Source: Candidatus Woesearchaeota archaeon (GTDB taxonomy: Archaea; Nanobdellota; Nanobdellia; Woesearchaeales; ARS49). From it: a stretch of DNA of 64,000 bases. The notes beneath the pieces were generated by a model, which worked only from the letters and a program-made list of their open reading frames with translations, was not told the DNA's origin and did no database searches. The stretch covers positions 114,492 through 178,491 of the forward strand of contig JAHWHZ010000003.1 of NCBI GenBank assembly GCA_019322895.1. Reading direction: 5' to 3'. Below are positions 5,279-58,398 of the stretch, one piece after another. The stretch's first letter is position 1. Every line of letters begins with the position of its first letter. Position numbers and translations under genes: made by a program.

Positions 5279-5332
5279 CCACCAATACTTTAGAAAGTAC
5301 TTGTCCTTTATAAAATTATTCAGATATCCAGC

Positions 5333-5450
5333 AAATTTTTAAAAAATTTGACTAAAGCGCTCTTCGTTCAGGCTCCAGAAGCACCCCATTAGCTGTTTGC
5401 TTCGCAAACAGGGGCTCTACTCTTCTCTCGCCTTCACGATATCGCGCGAA
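5333..5450 (+). mobile_element. R-element copy 1 (AT hairpin aaatttttaaaaaattt plus 91-nt core 5357-5447), abutting the gyrB stop codon
   Basis: The core aligns by eye along its whole length with 31711-31802 and with the reverse complement of 57912-58003. It is flanked by ttagatatcaagc (gyrB end) and ttcagatatccagc. Confidence 0.6.
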
Positions 5451-7496
<2,046 letters not shown>

Positions 7497-31346: not shown

Positions 31347-31619
31347 CGTGTCTTTCCTCCCAAATATCTCTTGTTTTTAAAGTATAAATAACTTTCTATA
31401 TACTTATAGGTAACAGTGACCATTTATAAAGCTTATGGTTTTTTAACTACTTTTCAGTGTCAAAAACAAAAGATTTAAATACTACTAGTGTTTACCTATT
31501 ATTACCATGAAACGAGTTGATTGTATTCATTGTGGATAAACTGAATTCTTATTTTATTAGTTCCAGCTCTATGATGCGAAGTGATTGTATTCATCATCGC
31601 TAGTTCTAAATTCATTCTT

Positions 31620-31687
31620 GGCGGCAGTGGCGTAATGGTAGCGTATGGGACTGTGGCTCCCATGGCGCGGGTTCGATTCCCACCTAA
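31620..31687 (+). pseudogene. truncated tRNA-His relic (5' 62 nt identical to the functional copy, no 3' acceptor strand)
   Basis: 31620-31681 is identical to 31815-31876. The sequence then diverges (cccacctaac vs cccgcctgcc), so the acceptor stem cannot close. Confidence 0.8.
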
Positions 31688-31802
31688 CTTTGAAAAAGTT
31701 AGGATCAAAATGCGTTCTTTGTTCAGGCTCCAGAAGCAATCTATAGGCTGTTTGCTCTGCAAACAGGGATTCAACTCTTCTCTCACCCTCACAATATCAC
31801 GC
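31683..31802 (+). mobile_element. R-element copy 2 (hairpin cctaactttgaaaaagttagg plus core 31711-31802) between the tRNA-His relic and the intact tRNA-His
   Basis: Aligns with 5333-5450 and with the reverse complement of 57912-58032. Confidence 0.6.
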
Positions 31803-31814
31803 AATATTAATTAT

Positions 31815-31886
31815 GGCGGCAGTGGCGTAATGGTAGCGTATGGGACTGTGGCTCCCATGGCGCGGGTTCGATTCCCGCCTGCCGCC
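31815..31886 (+). tRNA. tRNA-His: tRNA-His (GUG) with genome-encoded G-1
   Basis: 8-bp acceptor GGCGGCAG/CTGCCGCC, D arm GGCG..., anticodon arm TGGGA-CTGTGGC-TCCCA (anticodon GTG), T arm GCGGG-TTCGATT-CCCGC. Confidence 0.9.
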
Positions 31887-31936
31887 CTTGATTCTCAAAA
31901 AGATTTATATATAATAATGAATGCAGGTGAATTAAA

Positions 31937-53800: not shown

Positions 53801-56632
53801 TTAGCTAAAAATCTCACTTAAAAGGCGGTTGAGTTTAGCATCAATATCAAGCAAGACCCTGCTTTTCTCTGCCTCAGCCTCTCTCTTGTACCTTTCTGCT
53901 GTATCTCTTGGAGCACCTTCTGCCTTTTTTTGCAGTGCTTCATCAATATCTGCAAATCTTTTCTCTCTTGACAAATAAGCGTTCAAGTAATCATGGAACA
54001 GTTTTCTTTCGTATTGTACTGCATCAATCAAGGCATCTGGGGTATTGCAGTCCCTGCCCAATATATCTGTCATTTGAGTGAAAGGCGCATATTCTGAGGC
54101 ATGCTCTCTTAATTTCTTTGAGTCAACATATGCCCGCAAGCCAGGCAAAGTTTTTTCTTCTAGCGGCAGTTTGCCTGCAAGATTCTGTATCCTTGCCTTC
54201 AAATCTTTCATCGCAGCCCTTGTATTATCCATTGCAGTTATCTGCATTGTTTTAGATTCAACCCATTTATAGAATGCATCAAAAGTCTTTATTCCAGGCA
54301 TTACATTGTATTCCTTCACAAGCTGTCTTTTTCTTTTTTCCAGTTTTTCCTGATCTTTCAATATATCATATACTTCCATTACACGTTTTGTTGCCTGAAC
54401 CTTGCTTCTCAGCCCGTCTATTTTCTTTACAGTCTTTATTAAATCCTCTGCCTCATCAAGCCTCTCTGCAGTTTGCAGTATTCTTTCAGCTGTCCTTAGA
54501 TCTCGCTCTATCTGTCTTTTTGTGACACTCTCCCAGTCAGCGTACAATCTTTTTCTTATCTTTTCATCATTTTTCTTGGCAAGAGACTCGAGGCGCGCGT
54601 GGATTGTATCCAGCCTTTTGTAAGTTTTCTTGAATCTTGACATGAATTCTTCTTCTTTTTGCTCAGCATCTTCCTGCTCTGCAATGACTTTGACTGCCTG
54701 CTTGAATTTTGTGGCGCTTGTGTAGCCGTATTTTTCTGCAAGATTCAGTTTTTCTGCATCAACAAGGTCCTGGTTCTCTGCAAGTGCCTCGCGGCATGCA
54801 TCTACATATGTCTGAAGATATATCCTGTTGTGGCTGTCTAAAAGATCGCTGTCTGCAATCTCTTGGTCAGGATCTGCAGCTCTTTCAAGCAGTCTTTTTT
54901 TGTCTGGCGCATCAGCTTCTGCAAGGATTTTGCTCAAGGCATTTTTGTCAGAATATGCAAAGTCCCTTATCTTCAGGACTTCTTCCTGCAAAAGCCCGTC
55001 CATTCTGTCCAGCATGCATGGTGCCAGGAATCTTTCATTAACAACTGTTTCAACTGCATTCAATACCAGATAATATACTCCAATCAGGTTAAAGAATGCA
55101 TTCTTGTCCTGCAGGTTTTTGTCGCCGTGCATCATTGAATAGCCAAAAATGTCTATGCTCAATCCAGGATTGTCTTCTATGTATTTGTGCACGATTTTCC
55201 TGACAGCGTGATATCTTGAGTGCAGGTCTGCAACATGCTTTGGCATGATCTTTGACATTGTTTTTGGCATGGATTCCAGCTCAAGAAGGCGCGTAGCAAG
55301 CACTGCGTTCTCTTTTCTTAGTTCTTCGATTGATGCTGCATCTGCAACAGCTTCTTTTGCTTCTAATTCTCTCACTTTTTCCTGCAGTGTTGCAACTGTT
55401 TTGTCTGCAGTCTGCAGGTTTTTCTTCAATATATTTACGGTTCTTTCTGCGTGCAGGCTGAGAAGATTTTTTGAGTCCAGCAATTCTTCTTTTGATTTAT
55501 ATATTCCTTCTACTGCTTTTTGCATGCGCTGCATGCTTTCAATCATTATCTTGAGAGAATCAATAGGATTTTTGCTGCCAAGGTCTTCTGTTTTCAGGCC
55601 AAGCAGCGCGGATAATTCACTGTATTTTCTTTCTCCTTCTTCAATAATATTTCTTATCTGCTCTGCCTGCAGATTTTTTTGTGCTAGGACAGCATTCAGT
55701 CTTTCAGTGAAGCCGTGAACTTCTTTTTTTGCGAGCAGGTATGCTTCACGAAGTTCTTCAGGAGTCTGAGGAACATCGTCAAAGTGCTTTACTTCCTGGA
55801 TTCTTTCTGGCTCTGCTTTTTCTTCTGCTTTTCTAAGCACTCTTAATATATATTCTTTTGACAAATCAGTCTCTATGCTTAATTGCTCTGCTGCCTTGTC
55901 AAGCCCTCTTTCCAGCGTGTCTCTTTGTTTTGTCTGCACAAAAGAAATATTTTTTAATTCTCCTGCAAGCAGATTGTTTAGTGCCAGTGCTGTTCTGTAA
56001 TTAAGAATTTTAACTGCAAATTCGCCGTTGTCTGCTTCTATTACATAATCATCATTCTCGCTGAATTTCCCAAGAGCCGCCTTCACGACATTCTTGTGTC
56101 TGGAATGCATCACCCCATATCCTGATGCACCAAATATCTTGGGAAGAGTGTTGACAAAAAAATTAGTCTGCTTGTTTGCCTCTGCAATCAATACAGCTTC
56201 ATCTTCTTTTCTTTCCGCAAGAGCATCTTCTACTGTTGTTGTATCCTGCACAAGCGATGCTTTTTCTTTCTCTATCCTTTGGATAGTGCTGTCTCTCTGG
56301 CTTATCTCTGCATCTCTCCTGTTTAGTTCTTTTTGAAAATAATTAAAACCATCTTCAAGTGTCTTGATCGGCTTTCCAGTTAAAGCAAGAATCTGTGTCA
56401 AAAGACTCTTTTCCTGCTTTGCAAGCTTCCTGTATTTTTGCAAAGTATCTTCCTCATAAGTGCCTGCACGCCTTTCTTCTGTCATCCTGACAGCTTCTAC
56501 AGTAAATTCCTGTTCTCGTACCGCACTTTGCAGCAGCTCCTTTAAGCCAGGATCTATTTCCTGATTATCAAGATCTGTAAGTCTGACTACCTTTTTCCTA
56601 GCTTTAGAACTAATTTCTTTTTCTTCTGCCAT
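53801..56632 (-). CDS. 943-aa coiled-coil-rich protein of unknown function
   Basis: Long uninterrupted ORF with a Glu/Lys/Leu-rich heptad-like composition. No enzymatic motif recognised. Confidence 0.75.
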   Translation of the reverse strand: MAEEKEISSKARKKVVRLTDLDNQEIDPGLKELLQSAVREQEFTVEAVRMTEERRAGTYEEDTLQKYRKLAKQEKSLLTQILALTGKPIKTLEDGFNYFQKELNRRDAEISQRDSTIQRIEKEKASLVQDTTTVEDALAERKEDEAVLIAEANKQTNFFVNTLPKIFGASGYGVMHSRHKNVVKAALGKFSENDDYVIEADNGEFAVKILNYRTALALNNLLAGELKNISFVQTKQRDTLERGLDKAAEQLSIETDLSKEYILRVLRKAEEKAEPERIQEVKHFDDVPQTPEELREAYLLAKKEVHGFTERLNAVLAQKNLQAEQIRNIIEEGERKYSELSALLGLKTEDLGSKNPIDSLKIMIESMQRMQKAVEGIYKSKEELLDSKNLLSLHAERTVNILKKNLQTADKTVATLQEKVRELEAKEAVADAASIEELRKENAVLATRLLELESMPKTMSKIMPKHVADLHSRYHAVRKIVHKYIEDNPGLSIDIFGYSMMHGDKNLQDKNAFFNLIGVYYLVLNAVETVVNERFLAPCMLDRMDGLLQEEVLKIRDFAYSDKNALSKILAEADAPDKKRLLERAADPDQEIADSDLLDSHNRIYLQTYVDACREALAENQDLVDAEKLNLAEKYGYTSATKFKQAVKVIAEQEDAEQKEEEFMSRFKKTYKRLDTIHARLESLAKKNDEKIRKRLYADWESVTKRQIERDLRTAERILQTAERLDEAEDLIKTVKKIDGLRSKVQATKRVMEVYDILKDQEKLEKRKRQLVKEYNVMPGIKTFDAFYKWVESKTMQITAMDNTRAAMKDLKARIQNLAGKLPLEEKTLPGLRAYVDSKKLREHASEYAPFTQMTDILGRDCNTPDALIDAVQYERKLFHDYLNAYLSREKRFADIDEALQKKAEGAPRDTAERYKREAEAEKSRVLLDIDAKLNRLLSEIFS

Positions 56633-56759: not shown

Positions 56760-57911
56760 ATGAATATTTCAAATATCTTGATGATAGCATTCTTGATAAT
56801 CCTTAGTCTTACGATATTCATATTCAGGAAGAAATTCAAGTTCCACAGATTTGCAAAGATATTCTATTTTGGGATGTACAAGACAAAAGTGGGATTAAGG
56901 TTGATGGATAAGTGGGCAAATAAGTATCCGAGGATATTAAGAAGATTGTGCTATGCTGCGATTGCAGTCGGATTCATCGGCATGGTTATAGTTGTAGTTG
57001 ACTTGGCCAAATCACTTTATTCAATACTTGCAGGAACATCCACCTTGACAGTTGGACTGGTATTGCCTGTTGAAGCCAAAGGAATCTTTTATGTTCCTTT
57101 TATTTACTGGATTATTGCGGTTTTTGCAATTGTTGTTGTGCACGAGTTTGCGCACGGATTGATTGCAAGGCTGCACAAGATCCGCGTGAAAAGCTCTGGC
57201 GTTGCTTTCTTGGGAGCGATAATCCCTATCATTCCAGCTGCTTTTGTTGAGCCAGATGAAAAGCAGTTAAGAAAAGCTTCAAGATTCAAGCAGTTGAGTG
57301 TCTATGCAGCAGGGCCTTTTGCAAACATTATTTTCGGCTTTGCTTGTTTAGGAATATTTGCATTACTGCTTAATCCTCTTGCAGCCTCTGTATATAATTT
57401 AGAGGGTGTCAAGGTAAATGATTTCATGGGCGTTGACAGCCCTGCAGAGATAAGCGGCATGGCAGCAGGAGATGTGATCACACAAATCAATGACAATGAA
57501 ATAAAGAATACAGATGATTTCATTAATGCGATTGACAAGGCAAATCCAGGTGATGTTGCAGAGATACAGACAAAAGAAAAAACTTATGAAGTATTGTTAG
57601 AAGAAGATCCTGTTGAAAAAGATGCTTTCCTTGGAATCTGGGTGTCAACAGAAAAGTCAATGAAAAACAAGAACCCGTTCTCTTATCTTGTAATATGGCT
57701 GACTGACTTGTTTTACTGGTTATTCTTGCTAAACTTGGGAGTAGGATTGTTCAACCTGATTCCAGTCGGCCCGATTGACGGCGGAAGGATGCTCCAGACT
57801 GTTTTAGAAAAAGTGATGCACACTAAAAAAGCAACAAAAGTGTGGCATGCTGTTAGTTTTGTTGTGCTGGCGATAATTTTAAGTAATATAATTTATGCAT
57901 TTGTGGCATAA
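56760..57911 (+). CDS. site-2 protease (M50 family) with PDZ domain
   Basis: HEFAHGLIA (HExxH) within a TM helix, a PDZ-like GMAAGDVITQINDNEI segment, and C-terminal NLIPVGPIDGG. Confidence 0.9.
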   Translation: MNISNILMIAFLIILSLTIFIFRKKFKFHRFAKIFYFGMYKTKVGLRLMDKWANKYPRILRRLCYAAIAVGFIGMVIVVVDLAKSLYSILAGTSTLTVGLVLPVEAKGIFYVPFIYWIIAVFAIVVVHEFAHGLIARLHKIRVKSSGVAFLGAIIPIIPAAFVEPDEKQLRKASRFKQLSVYAAGPFANIIFGFACLGIFALLLNPLAASVYNLEGVKVNDFMGVDSPAEISGMAAGDVITQINDNEIKNTDDFINAIDKANPGDVAEIQTKEKTYEVLLEEDPVEKDAFLGIWVSTEKSMKNKNPFSYLVIWLTDLFYWLFLLNLGVGLFNLIPVGPIDGGRMLQTVLEKVMHTKKATKVWHAVSFVVLAIILSNIIYAFVA

Positions 57912-58040
57912 GCGCGATATTGTGAAGGCGAGAGAAGAGTTAAATCCATGTTTGCGTGAGCAAACATCATATCGATTGCTTCTGGAGCCTGAACAAAGAG
58001 CGCCCTTTGATCCTAACTTTTTTAAAGTTAGGCGATCATA
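57912..58040 (-). mobile_element. R-element copy 3 (core 57912-58003, hairpin 58012-58032), inverted relative to copies 1 and 2
   Basis: Begins at the base after the S2P stop codon. Flanked by 33-nt direct repeats at 57879-57911 and 58041-58073. Confidence 0.65.
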
Positions 58041-58073
58041 TTAAGTAATATAATATACGCATTTGTGGCTTAA
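58041..58073 (+). repeat. displaced copy of the last 33 nt of the S2P protease gene
   Basis: 30/33 identical to 57879-57911. All three differences are synonymous, and both copies read LSNIIYAFVA*. Confidence 0.85.
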
Positions 58074-58074
58074 A

Positions 58075-58398
58075 ATGACGGGAGATCCTCTTTATGAATT
58101 TTTGAAAACTGCATCAGCTGAACAGCTGGACTTGCTGGCAAATGTTGTAGAAGCGCTTGCAAGAGAGAGGCAATTATCTGAACAGATAACAAACATATCT
58201 GACAGAAATGATATCTCTGCTGTCTGCCACCGGACTATTTCTGAAGACCCAACATTGATTCCATCTGCTTTAAAGCTGGAGCGTAAAGAAACAAGAGCTG
58301 AAATAAAAGCCTATTTGCAAACAGCAATAAAACAGTTTGGCAATGTGGATTTTATTAGAAGCTGCTATCGAGATTATGTTGGAGATTTGCCTGAATAA
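58075..58398 (+). CDS. hypothetical protein (107 aa)
   Basis: The ATG at 58075 is preferred over the TTG in the track, which lies inside the duplicated segment. Confidence 0.5.
   Translation: MTGDPLYEFLKTASAEQLDLLANVVEALARERQLSEQITNISDRNDISAVCHRTISEDPTLIPSALKLERKETRAEIKAYLQTAIKQFGNVDFIRSCYRDYVGDLPE

What the first reader, a model, noticed from the sequence alone, without database searches (positions are those of the whole stretch)
57879..58073. 129-nt R-element inserted at the S2P protease stop codon, flanked by a 33-nt duplication that differs only at synonymous sites
The R-element (57912-58040) starts at the first base after the S2P stop codon. The gene's last 33 nt are ttaagtaatataatttatgcatttgtggcataa. 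They reappear after the element as ttaagtaatataatatacgcatttgtggcttaa, which is 30/33 identical. All three differences are synonymous (att/ata, tat/tac, gca/gct), so both copies encode LSNIIYAFVA*. A replication-type target-site duplication would be identical when it forms, and a non-coding relic drifting freely would not be expected to change only at synonymous positions. Exclusively synonymous divergence suggests that one copy came from a different functional allele. In that case the element carries or exchanges a gene terminus when it inserts, as att-site-bearing integrative elements do, yet it is only about 130 nt long and non-coding.
Basis: seen in the sequence. Interest (0 to 1): 0.8.

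Follow-up and report, generated by a model that had tools for sequence, protein, structure and literature searches.

The report
Small archaeal repeat that swaps gene ends
A 120-base, tightly folded, non-coding repeat of Woesearchaeota sits exactly at the ends of genes, with a working gene end on one side and a displaced spare copy on the other; the two copies come from different functional alleles, so the repeat seems to move between genomes with a gene end attached.

Summary
The repeat (E) is 121 nt (57912-58032). The duplicated S2P terminus is 43 nt, not 33 (57869-57911 vs 58031-58073). It is 38/43 identical, and all 5 differences are synonymous.

E is a structured, non-coding repeat family of a Woesearchaeota clade: 33 base pairs, 11 of them with compensatory changes, and no Rfam match. 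All three window copies lie at gene ends (S2P, tRNA-His, gyrB), each flanked by a duplicated gene terminus of 12-76 nt. So do 8 of the 12 distinct copies tested in relatives.

Across seven coding duplicates, differences are 16 synonymous or stop-to-stop against 2 nonsynonymous (p about 1e-5). Relic tRNA copies differ by compensatory pairs. Empty S2P sites exist in relatives.

At an FtsY locus, the copy after E matches the closest E-less relative at all three differing features. The copy joined to E's 5' end carries a tail typical of other lineages.

My best reading is that E-bearing and E-less alleles recombine. This needs a homologous crossover in the terminus and a microhomology join at E's 3' palindrome, not a transposase target duplication. 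How E reaches a new gene is unknown, and I found no described family like it.

The parts
56760..57911 (+). S2P (peptidase M50 + PDZ) gene whose stop codon TAA (57909-57911) abuts the element
   Evidence: ORF. Pfam PF02163/PF13180/PF17820. Homologues are named Woesearchaeota site-2 protease.
57869..57911 (+). Left copy of the duplicated terminus (X_L): the last 13 codons plus the stop of the working S2P gene, joined to the 5' end of E
   Evidence: It encodes AIILSNIIYAFVA*.
57912..58032 (+). Element E, copy 1. A long irregular hairpin (about 57912-58003) with two conserved G-A internal loops is followed by the linker CCTTTGAT and a terminal 9-bp palindromic hairpin with a T6 loop (58012-58032).
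   Evidence: Covariance model hit at 143.5 bits. MFE -42.8 kcal/mol, z = -5.1. 33 pairs, 99% of cells paired, 11 pairs with compensatory changes, 0/500 shuffles as good.
58031..58073 (+). Right copy of the terminus (X_R, the spare copy). It is 38/43 identical to X_L with 5 synonymous differences, and is preceded by an in-frame TAG at 58029-58031. Its first two bases overlap the last GG of E's hairpin (microhomology).
58075..58398 (+). 107-aa gene that starts 1 nt after the spare copy's stop (TAAaATG). This is the resident downstream neighbour of the displaced terminus.
   Evidence: A homologue (38% identical) sits at the same place in L022 and is absent from E-less relatives.
31683..31803 (-). 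Element E, copy 2
   Evidence: 140.7 bits.
31804..31887 (+). Working tRNA-His(GTG) (31816-31887) plus a 12-nt spacer (31804-31815), joined to the 5' end of E copy 2. Here the gene's 5' end faces E.
   Evidence: ARAGORN and Rfam at 68 bits. The same 12-nt spacer lies next to E in L013.
31620..31682 (+). Spare copy of the 5' 62 nt of tRNA-His, 62/62 identical to the working gene. It is joined to E's 3' hairpin and followed by the resident upstream region.
   Evidence: Rfam 44 bits; 76-nt alignment including the spacer.
5332..5448 (-). Element E, copy 3
   Evidence: 127.5 bits.
5451..5462 (-). End of gyrB (ctt gat atc TAA = LDI*), 3 nt from the 5' end of E copy 3
5320..5332 (-). Short spare copy of the gyrB end (g ctg gat atc TGA = LDI*), directly after E's 3' hairpin
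   Evidence: It is weak on its own (p about 0.2) but positioned exactly as at the other loci.

Best explanation
**What E is.** E is a non-coding, about 120-nt structured repeat confined, as far as I could search, to a clade of Woesearchaeota. It lives at gene boundaries.

**Architecture at each occupied site.**
- The 5' end of E is fused, 0-17 nt away, to an intact gene terminus that completes the gene.
- The base of E's 3' palindromic hairpin is fused to a truncated second copy of that terminus.
- The second copy continues into the resident flanking DNA.

**How I think the duplicate arises.** It is not a decaying transposase target-site duplication. It is two allelic versions of one gene end placed side by side by recombination between an E-bearing allele and an E-less functional allele. 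Two joins are needed:
- a homologous crossover inside the terminus on E's 5' side, which explains why the reading frame and protein length are restored exactly;
- a join at the base of E's 3' palindrome that uses 1-4 nt of microhomology.

Mechanistically this could be a Campbell-type single crossover of an excised 'E plus terminus' circle. It could also be one-sided homologous plus illegitimate recombination, or repair of a break at the palindrome using an E-less template.

**Consequences.**
- Sequence next to E (the stop codon or tail, the spacer, and the first codons of the spare copy) stays linked to E.
- Parts further away are replaced by resident functional sequence. That gives synonymous-only or compensatory differences.
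- Recombination between the two copies would remove E precisely and regenerate an empty site.

**Shown.**
- The architecture and its recurrence.
- The allelic origin of the differences.
- Empty sites in relatives.
- Exchange of E-bearing blocks between lineages by homologous recombination.
- The conserved fold of E.

**Inferred.**
- The circle or break intermediate.
- The direction of transfer at the window's S2P locus.
- What E does for the cell. The T-run in its hairpin would fit an archaeal terminator / 3'-end module.
For: 1. **Recurrence.** All 3 window copies, and 8 of the 12 distinct copies tested from relatives, have a flanking direct duplicate of the adjoining gene end. Lengths are 12-76 nt. 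The ends are either 3' (S2P, gyrB, FtsY) or 5' (tRNA-His, the L002 gene). The intact gene is always on E's 5' side.
2. **Selection-filtered differences.** 16 synonymous or stop-to-stop against 2 nonsynonymous, p = 1.6e-5 under the most lenient neutral model. Both nonsynonymous changes lie in the three codons next to E's hairpin. Relic tRNAs keep compensatory stem pairs, e.g. TGGGA/TCCCA vs CAGGA/TCCTG.
3. **FtsY locus.** L014 has ...IIAS-MGL*-E-...IIAS-LF*. The closest relative, P0122 (97% identical, no E), ends ...IIASLF* and matches the spare copy at all 3 differing features. 'S(I/M)GL' is the common tail elsewhere (92 of 120 homologues).
4. **S2P locus.** Four lineages carry E at the stop codon: window, L022, L024, L030. 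Five have empty sites with one terminus: L019, L028, L029, L031, L033. The stop next to E is TAA in all four. The spare copies keep TGA (the type found in four of the five E-less relatives), TAG or TAA, plus the resident downstream DNA.
5. **The spare copy is not an old fossil.** S2P genes of these lineages are about 75% identical, with third codon positions about 50% identical. Yet each spare copy is 88-97% identical to its own genome's terminus.
6. **Linkage to E.** The 12-nt spacer next to E is identical in the window and L013, although the adjoining tRNAs differ at many positions.
7. **Block exchange.** L022 and L019 are about 99% identical up to 56 nt before the S2P stop and then 71% identical, so E-bearing blocks are exchanged by homologous recombination.
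8. **Microhomology at the right-hand junctions**, read from the sequences: GG, TTAG, AGG, TG, GTT.
9. **No sign of a transposon.** No terminal inverted repeats and no constant duplication length. No transposase, integrase or reverse transcriptase domain in the 20 largest window ORFs, although 9 of those 20 matched no Pfam family.
Against: - No intermediate (a circle, or a broken palindrome) has been observed.
- Homologous recombination on 12-43 nt is inefficient, and a 160-200 bp circle is stiff.
- The model does not explain how E first reaches a new gene.
- Three loci (L004/L008, L005, L023) show E without a detectable duplicate.
- In L022 both copies are of the same foreign type. In the window's tRNA-His locus the copies are identical. 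So at those sites duplication within one lineage, or gene conversion, fits equally well.
- The sample is about 15 copies from roughly 7 loci, several of them orthologous. The counts are therefore not fully independent.
- The direction of transfer at L014 could be reversed, i.e. E-less DNA overwriting an E-bearing allele.
Confidence: 0.5

Rival explanations
1. E is a MITE-like non-autonomous transposon. An unidentified enzyme makes widely and variably staggered cuts, giving long target-site duplications of 12-76 nt that happen to preserve the gene. The two copies are identical at birth. Later differences come from gene conversion, and from homologous recombination of either copy with functional alleles circulating in the population.
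For: - Direct repeats flank a multi-copy element at several unrelated genes.
- The copies are identical or nearly so at the window's tRNA-His locus, L024 and L002.
- There is a precedent for long, variable duplications of 8-514 bp in IS1634/IS1549 (PMC2266710).
- Frequent allelic recombination is demonstrated.
- L009 and L002 are near-identical strains that differ in the spare copy by two adjacent synonymous changes, which looks like an imported patch.
Against: - No terminal inverted repeats, and no transposase in the 20 largest window ORFs.
- The 5' junction restores the reading frame and protein length exactly at S2P (four lineages) and gyrB. At FtsY it supplies a homologous tail, MGL*, not random filler.
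- The stop codon next to E is TAA regardless of the resident stop.
- Explaining L014 still requires an E-bearing FtsY allele from another lineage.
Confidence: 0.27
2. The duplication is a local replication error. E's stable hairpins stall the polymerase, and the nascent strand switches template by microhomology and re-copies the gene end. Concerted evolution by gene conversion then keeps the spare copy similar to the gene.
For: - 1-4 nt microhomology at the junction with E's 3' palindrome.
- In L022 the spare copy is followed by the first 10 nt of E again.
- Tandem arrays of E and tRNA pieces occur in L001 and L008.
- E has a very stable fold.
Against: - Template switching within one genome cannot produce the foreign MGL* tail next to E together with a resident-type LF* spare copy in L014.
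- It cannot explain the TAA versus TGA/TAG stops.
- Gene conversion with a freely mutating spare copy predicts mostly nonsynonymous-type differences, but 16:2 is observed.
Confidence: 0.1
3. The spare copy is functional. For example, it could be a guide-like 3' extension of an E RNA that targets the gene or E-less alleles, as flank-derived guides of transposon-encoded RNA-guided nucleases do. Alternatively it could be needed for regulated excision. Selection would then keep it matched to the gene.
For: - The spare copy always directly follows E's 3' hairpin.
- E has a conserved RNA-like fold with G-U pairs on this strand.
- The spare copy stays 88-97% identical to the gene in lineages whose genes have diverged to saturation at silent sites.
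Against: - No nuclease gene is linked to E.
- No common motif precedes the left copies, by inspection of the sequences.
- Lengths vary from 12 to 76 nt.
- Polarity relative to the gene's RNA is sense at S2P, gyrB and FtsY but antisense at tRNA-His and L002.
- Some E copies have no duplicate.
Confidence: 0.06
4. Chance similarity, or a metagenome assembly artefact that merged two strain variants across a repeat.
For: E is longer than typical assembly k-mers, and some contigs break inside it (L016, L018). L023 joins S2P-E to the tRNA-His locus and could be chimeric.
Against: - The same architecture appears in independent assemblies from JGI, ENA, NCBI and Logan, and at several loci and lineages.
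- The alignment score is far above all shuffles.
Confidence: 0.02

Closest known systems
Integrative elements (proviruses, integrated plasmids, genomic islands) whose attachment site overlaps the end of a tRNA or protein gene and which carry a replacement gene end
   Same: - After integration, an intact gene made partly of element-borne sequence lies at one junction, and a displaced partial copy of the gene end lies at the other.
- The two copies are allelic, not identical by descent within the genome.
- Recombination between them removes the element.
   Different: - E is 120 nt and non-coding, with no linked integrase.
- One family occupies at least five different genes, at either their 5' or 3' ends.
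- Repeat length varies between loci from 12 to 76 nt.
- The junction at the 3' side shows microhomology rather than a fixed core.
MITEs and insertion sequences that make long variable target duplications (IS1634/IS1549: 8-514 bp; PMC2266710)
   Same: A small multi-copy element flanked by direct repeats of target DNA of unusual and variable length.
   Different: - No terminal inverted repeats and no cognate transposase seen.
- The flanking copies differ in the manner of functional alleles (16:2 synonymous; foreign FtsY tail).
- The E-adjacent stop codon or tail travels with E.
Campbell-type insertion-duplication and homology-facilitated illegitimate recombination, known from natural transformation in bacteria (cited from general knowledge; the term occurs in papers listed)
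   Same: One homologous anchor plus a microhomology join, or a single crossover of a circle, inserts foreign DNA and can duplicate the anchor. The products are hybrid donor/recipient repeats.
   Different: Those are general DNA-uptake outcomes, not properties of a specific conserved element with defined ends. They have not been shown in archaea of this group.
Structured intergenic repeats at gene ends (REP/BIME, ERIC, Correia/NEMIS elements)
   Same: Abundant short repeats with a strong fold, located just after stop codons, which can act as terminators or RNA-stability elements.
   Different: Those are not flanked by duplicated gene termini. E has a much longer conserved irregular hairpin with invariant G-A loops and is unrelated in sequence (no Rfam match).
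Homing introns and inteins, which co-convert flanking markers
   Same: The element spreads to the homologous site in other genomes, and adjacent gene sequence is exchanged with it. Examples are L022 vs L019, the L014 tail, and the spacer shared by the window and L013.
   Different: Homing leaves no duplication and needs an endonuclease. E lies outside the coding sequence.

Membership tests
MITE / DDE-transposon derivative | Terminal inverted repeats | tested here: not met
   The 5' end TGCGCGATATTGTGAAGG and the 3' end ...CCTAACTTTTTTAAAGTTAGG are not inverted copies of each other in any of 13 aligned copies.
MITE / DDE-transposon derivative | Target-site duplication of fixed, short length, identical at birth | tested here: not met
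   Duplicates range from 12 to 76 nt, are absent at 3 loci, and differ mainly at synonymous or compensatory positions.
MITE / DDE-transposon derivative | Cognate transposase encoded by a full-length relative in the genome | tested here: inconclusive
   No transposase domain in the 20 largest ORFs of the 64-kb window, although 9 of the 20 matched no Pfam family. The rest of the genome was not available.
Integrase-type integrative element with att site in a gene end | Tyrosine or serine recombinase encoded by, or linked to, the element | tested here: not met
   The 121 nt between the repeats are non-coding. A frame-breaking indel between copies, together with compensatory pairs, argues for a fold rather than an ORF. 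No integrase domain was found nearby.
Integrase-type integrative element with att site in a gene end | Direct repeats of a gene end flank the element, with the intact gene at one junction | tested here: met
Integrase-type integrative element with att site in a gene end | One specific target gene per element family | tested here: not met
   The same family sits at S2P, tRNA-His (both sides), gyrB, FtsY, a phosphoesterase-like gene start (assignment from memory of its N-terminus, not tested) and other sites.
Diversity-generating retroelement (template/variable repeat pair at a gene's 3' end) | Differences between the repeats confined to adenines of the template repeat; a reverse transcriptase nearby | tested here: not met
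   The differences are A/C, T/A, T/A, T/C and A/T, with no adenine rule in either direction. No reverse transcriptase domain in the ORFs scanned.
Any described RNA family (Rfam 15) | A covariance-model match at or near the gathering score | tested here: not met
   Only tRNA hits in the window. Around E the best hits are 9-14 bits with E-values of 1 or more.
IS200/IS605-type elements and their right-end guide RNAs | A flank-derived guide next to the element end, a conserved short motif beside the target, and a linked TnpB/IscB-type nuclease | tested here: not met
   No shared motif upstream of the left copies (sequences, by inspection). No nuclease domain found. Duplicate lengths are 12-76 nt.
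Structured non-coding repeat (generic) | A conserved secondary structure supported by covariation | tested here: met
   33 pairs, 99.1% of cells paired, 11 pairs with changes on both sides, covariation 0.231 vs 0.106 in shuffles (0/500 as high). Slid controls give 35-48% paired.

The most novel reading that the evidence does not exclude
E may be a new kind of mobile element that needs no enzyme of its own. It would be a structured 120-nt module that travels as 'E plus the adjoining gene end'. It would use that carried gene end as a homology arm to knock itself into the same gene of another genome, replacing the resident terminus and leaving it behind as a spare copy. It could leave again by recombination between the two copies. 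That amounts to a natural knock-in cassette that remodels gene ends: stop codons, C-terminal tails, tRNA 5' halves and upstream regions.
Probability: 0.3. Interest if true: 0.85.

Novelty: new variant of a known kind. Interest (0 to 1): 0.72.

Why it matters
**If the reading is right.**
- These very small symbiotic archaeal genomes harbour a selfish or semi-domesticated element that spreads by borrowing host homologous recombination and a piece of the host gene.
- That would be a route of mobility between classical transposition and integrase-mediated integration.
- It would show how gene termini, stop codons, C-terminal tails and tRNA genes can be swapped between lineages without disrupting essential genes.
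- It would explain why metagenome assemblies of these organisms break at such sites.
- It would supply a conserved, so far undescribed structured RNA/DNA motif whose binding partner could be sought.

**If the rival (long target duplications plus allelic recombination) is right.** E would still be an archaeal small element without inverted repeats that makes 12-76-nt duplications, which I did not find described in these searches.

Tried and rejected
- **E as a protein-coding ORF.** The 49-aa ORF 57895-58044 is not conserved. Copies differ by a 1-nt indel in a loop and keep base pairs by compensatory change.
- **Known RNA family.** No Rfam match at the gathering or lax threshold.
- **Diversity-generating retroelement.** No adenine pattern and no reverse transcriptase.
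- **Guide-RNA-like reading.** No common motif next to the left copies, and mixed polarity.
- **Old neutral fossil of one ancient duplication.** Excluded because silent sites between lineages are saturated, while each spare copy matches its own gene at 88-97%.
- **Tandem duplication of [terminus + E].** Excluded for L024 and L014, because the junction of the spare copy with downstream DNA equals the empty-site junction of relatives.
- **Viral or plasmid origin.** No hit in IMG/VR (two patterns), in phage records or in plasmids.
- **Search for a mobilising enzyme.** 20 window ORFs were scanned against Pfam with no candidate; 9 of the 20 matched no family.
- **Literature searches for a described equivalent.** Four searches found none.
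- **More diverged E copies.** A covariance-model search of the window with filters off, and of 23 loci, found none beyond those already known.
- **Clustering of E copies by locus or by genome.** No clean pattern.
Full report
**1. The observation**

- The M50/PDZ site-2 protease gene runs from 56760 to 57911 on the plus strand and ends in TAA.
- The next base starts a repeat with two further copies in the window, both on the minus strand: 31683-31803 and 5332-5448.
- Those copies and a covariance model place the conserved element (E) at 57912-58032. It is 121 nt, not 129.
- It extends 10 nt further upstream. The pair 57869-57911 and 58031-58073 is 43 nt and 38/43 identical.
- All five differences are synonymous (AIILSNIIYAFVA*).
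- The flank alignment exceeds all 300 shuffles.
- The same structure is present in independent JGI and ENA assemblies.
- The organism is an archaeon of the candidate phylum Woesearchaeota. Evidence: an N-terminus that I recognise as ribosomal protein S3Ae (not tested), homologue names, and 39.7% G+C.

**2. What E is**

- Thirteen distinct copies from the window and relatives are 68-94% identical.
- They share a fold made of a long irregular hairpin closed by GCGC/GCGC. It has two invariant internal loops (GA/GA and GAG/GGA) and an apical hairpin.
- The linker TTTGAT follows, then a terminal 8-9-bp palindromic hairpin whose loop holds a run of 4-6 T.
- On the alignment, 99.1% of pair cells are standard pairs and 11 of 33 pairs show changes on both sides. 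The covariation score is 0.231 against 0.106 in shuffles (0 of 500 as high). Sliding the partners drops pairing to 35-48%.
- The minimum free energy is -42.8 kcal/mol (z = -5.1).
- G-U pairs are more frequent on the strand shown than on its complement (about 10 against 4 cells), a mild hint of an RNA in this orientation.
- E is not coding. Copies differ by a frame-breaking indel in a loop.
- It matches no Rfam family.
- It has no terminal inverted repeats.
- It is absent from the phage, plasmid and IMG/VR collections.
- Only three copies exist in the window, even with an unfiltered model search.

**3. The flanks are the interesting part**

Oriented as E, every informative copy has an intact gene end 0-17 nt from its 5' end. 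A truncated second copy of that same gene end starts at the base of its 3' hairpin.

| Locus | Working copy (5' side of E) | Spare copy (3' side of E) |
|---|---|---|
| Window S2P | 43-nt 3' end | 38/43 identical |
| Window gyrB | ctt gat atc TAA + ttc | ctg gat atc TGA |
| Window tRNA-His | whole tRNA (5' end facing E) + 12-nt spacer | 62/62-identical copy of the tRNA's 5' part, continuing into the resident upstream region |
| L014 (FtsY) | 55-57-nt 3' end | see section 5 |
| L002/L009 | 37-nt start of a gene (MKILAFTDLHSN) | same 37 nt |
| L013, L001 (orthologous tRNA-His locus) | tRNA-His | partial tRNA |

- Seven of these duplicates are individually significant. The gyrB one is short. L001's first E copy shows only a tandem fragment of E.
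- L004/L008, L005 and L023 show none.

**4. The S2P locus in relatives**

Homologues 71-80% identical were located on contigs.

- *Empty sites.* Five lineages have one terminus and no E.
  - Four end in TGA followed by GTTCT.TTTCACAA.ATTTATATA: L019, L029, L031, L033.
  - L028 ends in TAG with a different downstream gene.
  - L027 has a different gene order.
- *Occupied sites.* Three further lineages carry E exactly at the stop codon with a spare terminus after it.
  - L024: differences atc/att, gtc/gac and TAA/TGA. Its spare copy runs straight into the same downstream sequence as the empty sites.
  - L030: gca/gct, atc/ata and TAA/TAG.
  - L022: one codon, att/agc. The first 10 nt of E are repeated after the spare copy.
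- *Stop codons.* The stop fused to E is TAA in all four lineages. The spare copies keep TGA, TAG or TAA.

**5. The copies differ as functional alleles do**

- Over seven coding duplicates, 16 codon differences are synonymous or stop-to-stop.
  - After removing one junction codon that I had wrongly included for L009, 2 are nonsynonymous.
  - With 21% of random changes expected to be synonymous, p is below 1e-8.
  - Allowing the working copy to contribute only synonymous changes gives p = 1.6e-5.
- Both nonsynonymous differences lie within the three codons next to E's hairpin.
- The relic tRNA-His fragments of three genomes differ from each other and from the working tRNAs by compensatory changes. 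Examples are the anticodon stem (TGGGA/TCCCA vs CAGGA/TCCTG) and a D-stem U-A vs C-G pair (read from the sequences).
- The spare copies cannot be old fossils. The S2P genes of the E-bearing lineages are about 75% identical, with third codon positions about 50% identical. Each spare copy is nevertheless 88-97% identical to the terminus of its own genome.

**6. An independent locus shows which copy is which**

- In L014 the FtsY gene ends ...IIAS-MGL* (tct atg ggg ctt tga), 1 nt before E. The spare copy after E ends ...IIAS-LF* and continues into the downstream DNA.
- The closest homologue, P0122 (97% identical), lies on a contig with no E. It ends ...gcttcc tta ttt tag.
- That equals the spare copy at all three features where the two L014 copies differ (gaT, tcC, and the LF* tail).
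- The LF tail characterises that small clade. S(I/M)GL is the tail of 92 of 120 Woesearchaeota FtsY homologues.
- An MGL-type relative without E uses different codons (L036).
- Hence, in a genome of the LF clade, the terminus fused to E's 5' end comes from another functional allele. The resident terminus has been displaced to E's 3' side.
- The same linkage shows elsewhere:
  - the 12-nt spacer next to E is identical in the window and L013, although the adjoining tRNAs differ at many positions;
  - the TAA is constant at S2P.

**7. Recombination is demonstrably at work**

- L022 (with E) and L019 (empty) are 96-100% identical in windows over nt 600-1010 of S2P, and near-identical from there to a point 56 nt before the stop.
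- They are only 71% identical from there to the stop.
- In L022 both terminus copies, E and a 102-aa gene form one foreign block.
- L009 and L002 are near-identical strains that differ in the spare copy by two adjacent synonymous changes.
- L023 joins S2P-E to a tRNA-His locus. This is either a rearrangement through E or a chimeric assembly.

**8. Mechanism**

*Left junction.*
- It restores the frame and length of the protein exactly (S2P in four lineages; gyrB), or supplies a homologous tail (FtsY).
- That is what a homologous crossover does, not random insertion.

*Right junction.*
- It always lies at the base of E's 3' palindrome.
- It shows 1-4 nt of identity with the sequence left of the duplicated segment: GG, TTAG, AGG, TG, GTT (sequences).
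- That is what an illegitimate, microhomology-mediated join looks like.

*Proposal.* The two-terminus architecture arises and spreads by recombination between an E-bearing allele and an E-less functional allele. Three routes are possible:
- single-crossover integration of an excised circle containing E and one terminus;
- one-sided homologous plus illegitimate recombination;
- repair of a break at the palindrome from an E-less template.

*What this explains.*
- The constant E-linked stop, tail and spacer.
- The resident-type stop and downstream DNA of the spare copy.
- Decay only at the E-proximal edge of the spare copy.
- Synonymous or compensatory differences elsewhere.
- Similar boundaries in diverged lineages.
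- The existence of empty sites.

*What it does not explain.*
- How E first reaches a new gene.
- Why some copies lack a duplicate.

The main rival is a transposition reaction with long, variable target duplications, as reported for IS1634/IS1549 at 8-514 bp (PMC2266710), followed by allelic recombination. It is disfavoured by the absence of inverted repeats and of a transposase, and by the exact or homologous 5' junctions. It is not excluded. Template switching within one genome cannot give the L014 pattern.

**9. Function of E itself (inference)**

- The T-run inside the terminal hairpin would fit archaeal transcription termination for co-oriented upstream genes (S2P, gyrB, FtsY, the L005 gene).
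- The invariant G-A loops suggest a protein-binding RNA or DNA motif.
- At tRNA-His and L002, E faces gene starts. The L002 spacer contains GGAGG 7 nt before the ATG, so E-linked sequence may also supply expression signals.

**10. Comparison with known systems and verdict**

- The architecture works like an integrated element whose attachment site overlaps a gene end. E fails the membership tests for that family: no recombinase and many targets.
- It also fails the tests for MITEs (no inverted repeats, no fixed duplication), for diversity-generating retroelements (no adenine rule) and for every Rfam family.
- Four literature searches found no description of such an element.
- I rate it a new variant of known kinds (small non-autonomous repeats / gene-end-targeting integrative elements).
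- There is a real chance, about 0.3, that it is a new kind: an enzyme-free, homology-arm-carrying, terminus-swapping element.
- Interest is 0.72.

Noticed in passing
window 5332-5448, 31683-31803, 57912-58032: The three E copies are spaced almost equally, 26.3 kb and 26.2 kb apart. This may be coincidence, but a role in chromosome organisation was not examined.
   Followed up: no
window 31518-31530 and 31582-31594 (minus strand): A second short repeat, ATGAATACAATCA(C/A)(T/C)TCG..TCAT, occurs twice beside the tRNA-His relic (3 matches against 0.28 expected). It is conserved at the orthologous place in L001, L013 and L023. It may be part of the tRNA's native upstream region, or another small element.
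   Followed up: partly
L023 1838-2100: The S2P gene (a protein identical to that of L022) is followed by E and then directly by a complete tRNA-His and its upstream region. This is either a genome rearrangement by recombination between E copies at two loci, or a chimeric assembly through the repeat.
   Followed up: partly
L001 1295-1690 (minus strand): The locus holds an array: the 3' fragment of an E, an 11-nt scrap of the tRNA end, a full E, a complete tRNA-His, an 8-nt spacer, another E, and a partial tRNA-His. ARAGORN calls a spurious 87-nt 'tRNA-Ser' across a relic plus E's hairpin.
   Followed up: partly
L002 6379-6440 and L022 about 2815-2825: The duplicated target in L002 contains TGTGAAGGCGAG, a 12-nt match to the consensus of E's own 5' arm. 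In L022 the spare terminus is followed by GTGCGATATT, the first 10 nt of E. Both hint that sequence similarity to E's 5' end plays a part in forming the junction.
   Followed up: no
window 58075-58398; L022 2850-3158; L030 2576-2974: Small genes of variable identity sit between the spare terminus and the conserved Rrf2-family gene, but only in E-bearing S2P loci. There is a 107/102-aa family (38% identical) in the window and L022, and an unrelated 132-aa ORF in L030. None is present in L024 or in the E-less relatives, so the spot is variable.
   Followed up: partly
L001 / L024 (contig CAZXEZ010000001.1): The MAG is titled 'uncultured Methanosarcinales archaeon'. However, its S2P and HisRS genes and its E copies are those of the Woesearchaeota clade (S2P 79% identical to the window's). 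The bin is probably mislabelled or contaminated.
   Followed up: no
window 53801-56632 (minus strand): A 943-aa protein with an apparently low-complexity, charged composition and no recorded Pfam hit lies divergently upstream of S2P. It is conserved with identical length (943 aa) in other samples of the same population (L015, L016).
   Followed up: no
L004 297-422; L002 6253-6378: Longer E variants carry one or two extra small hairpins inserted between the TTTGAT linker and the terminal palindrome. So that position tolerates cargo, and a full-length autonomous relative, if any exists, might carry a gene there.
   Followed up: no
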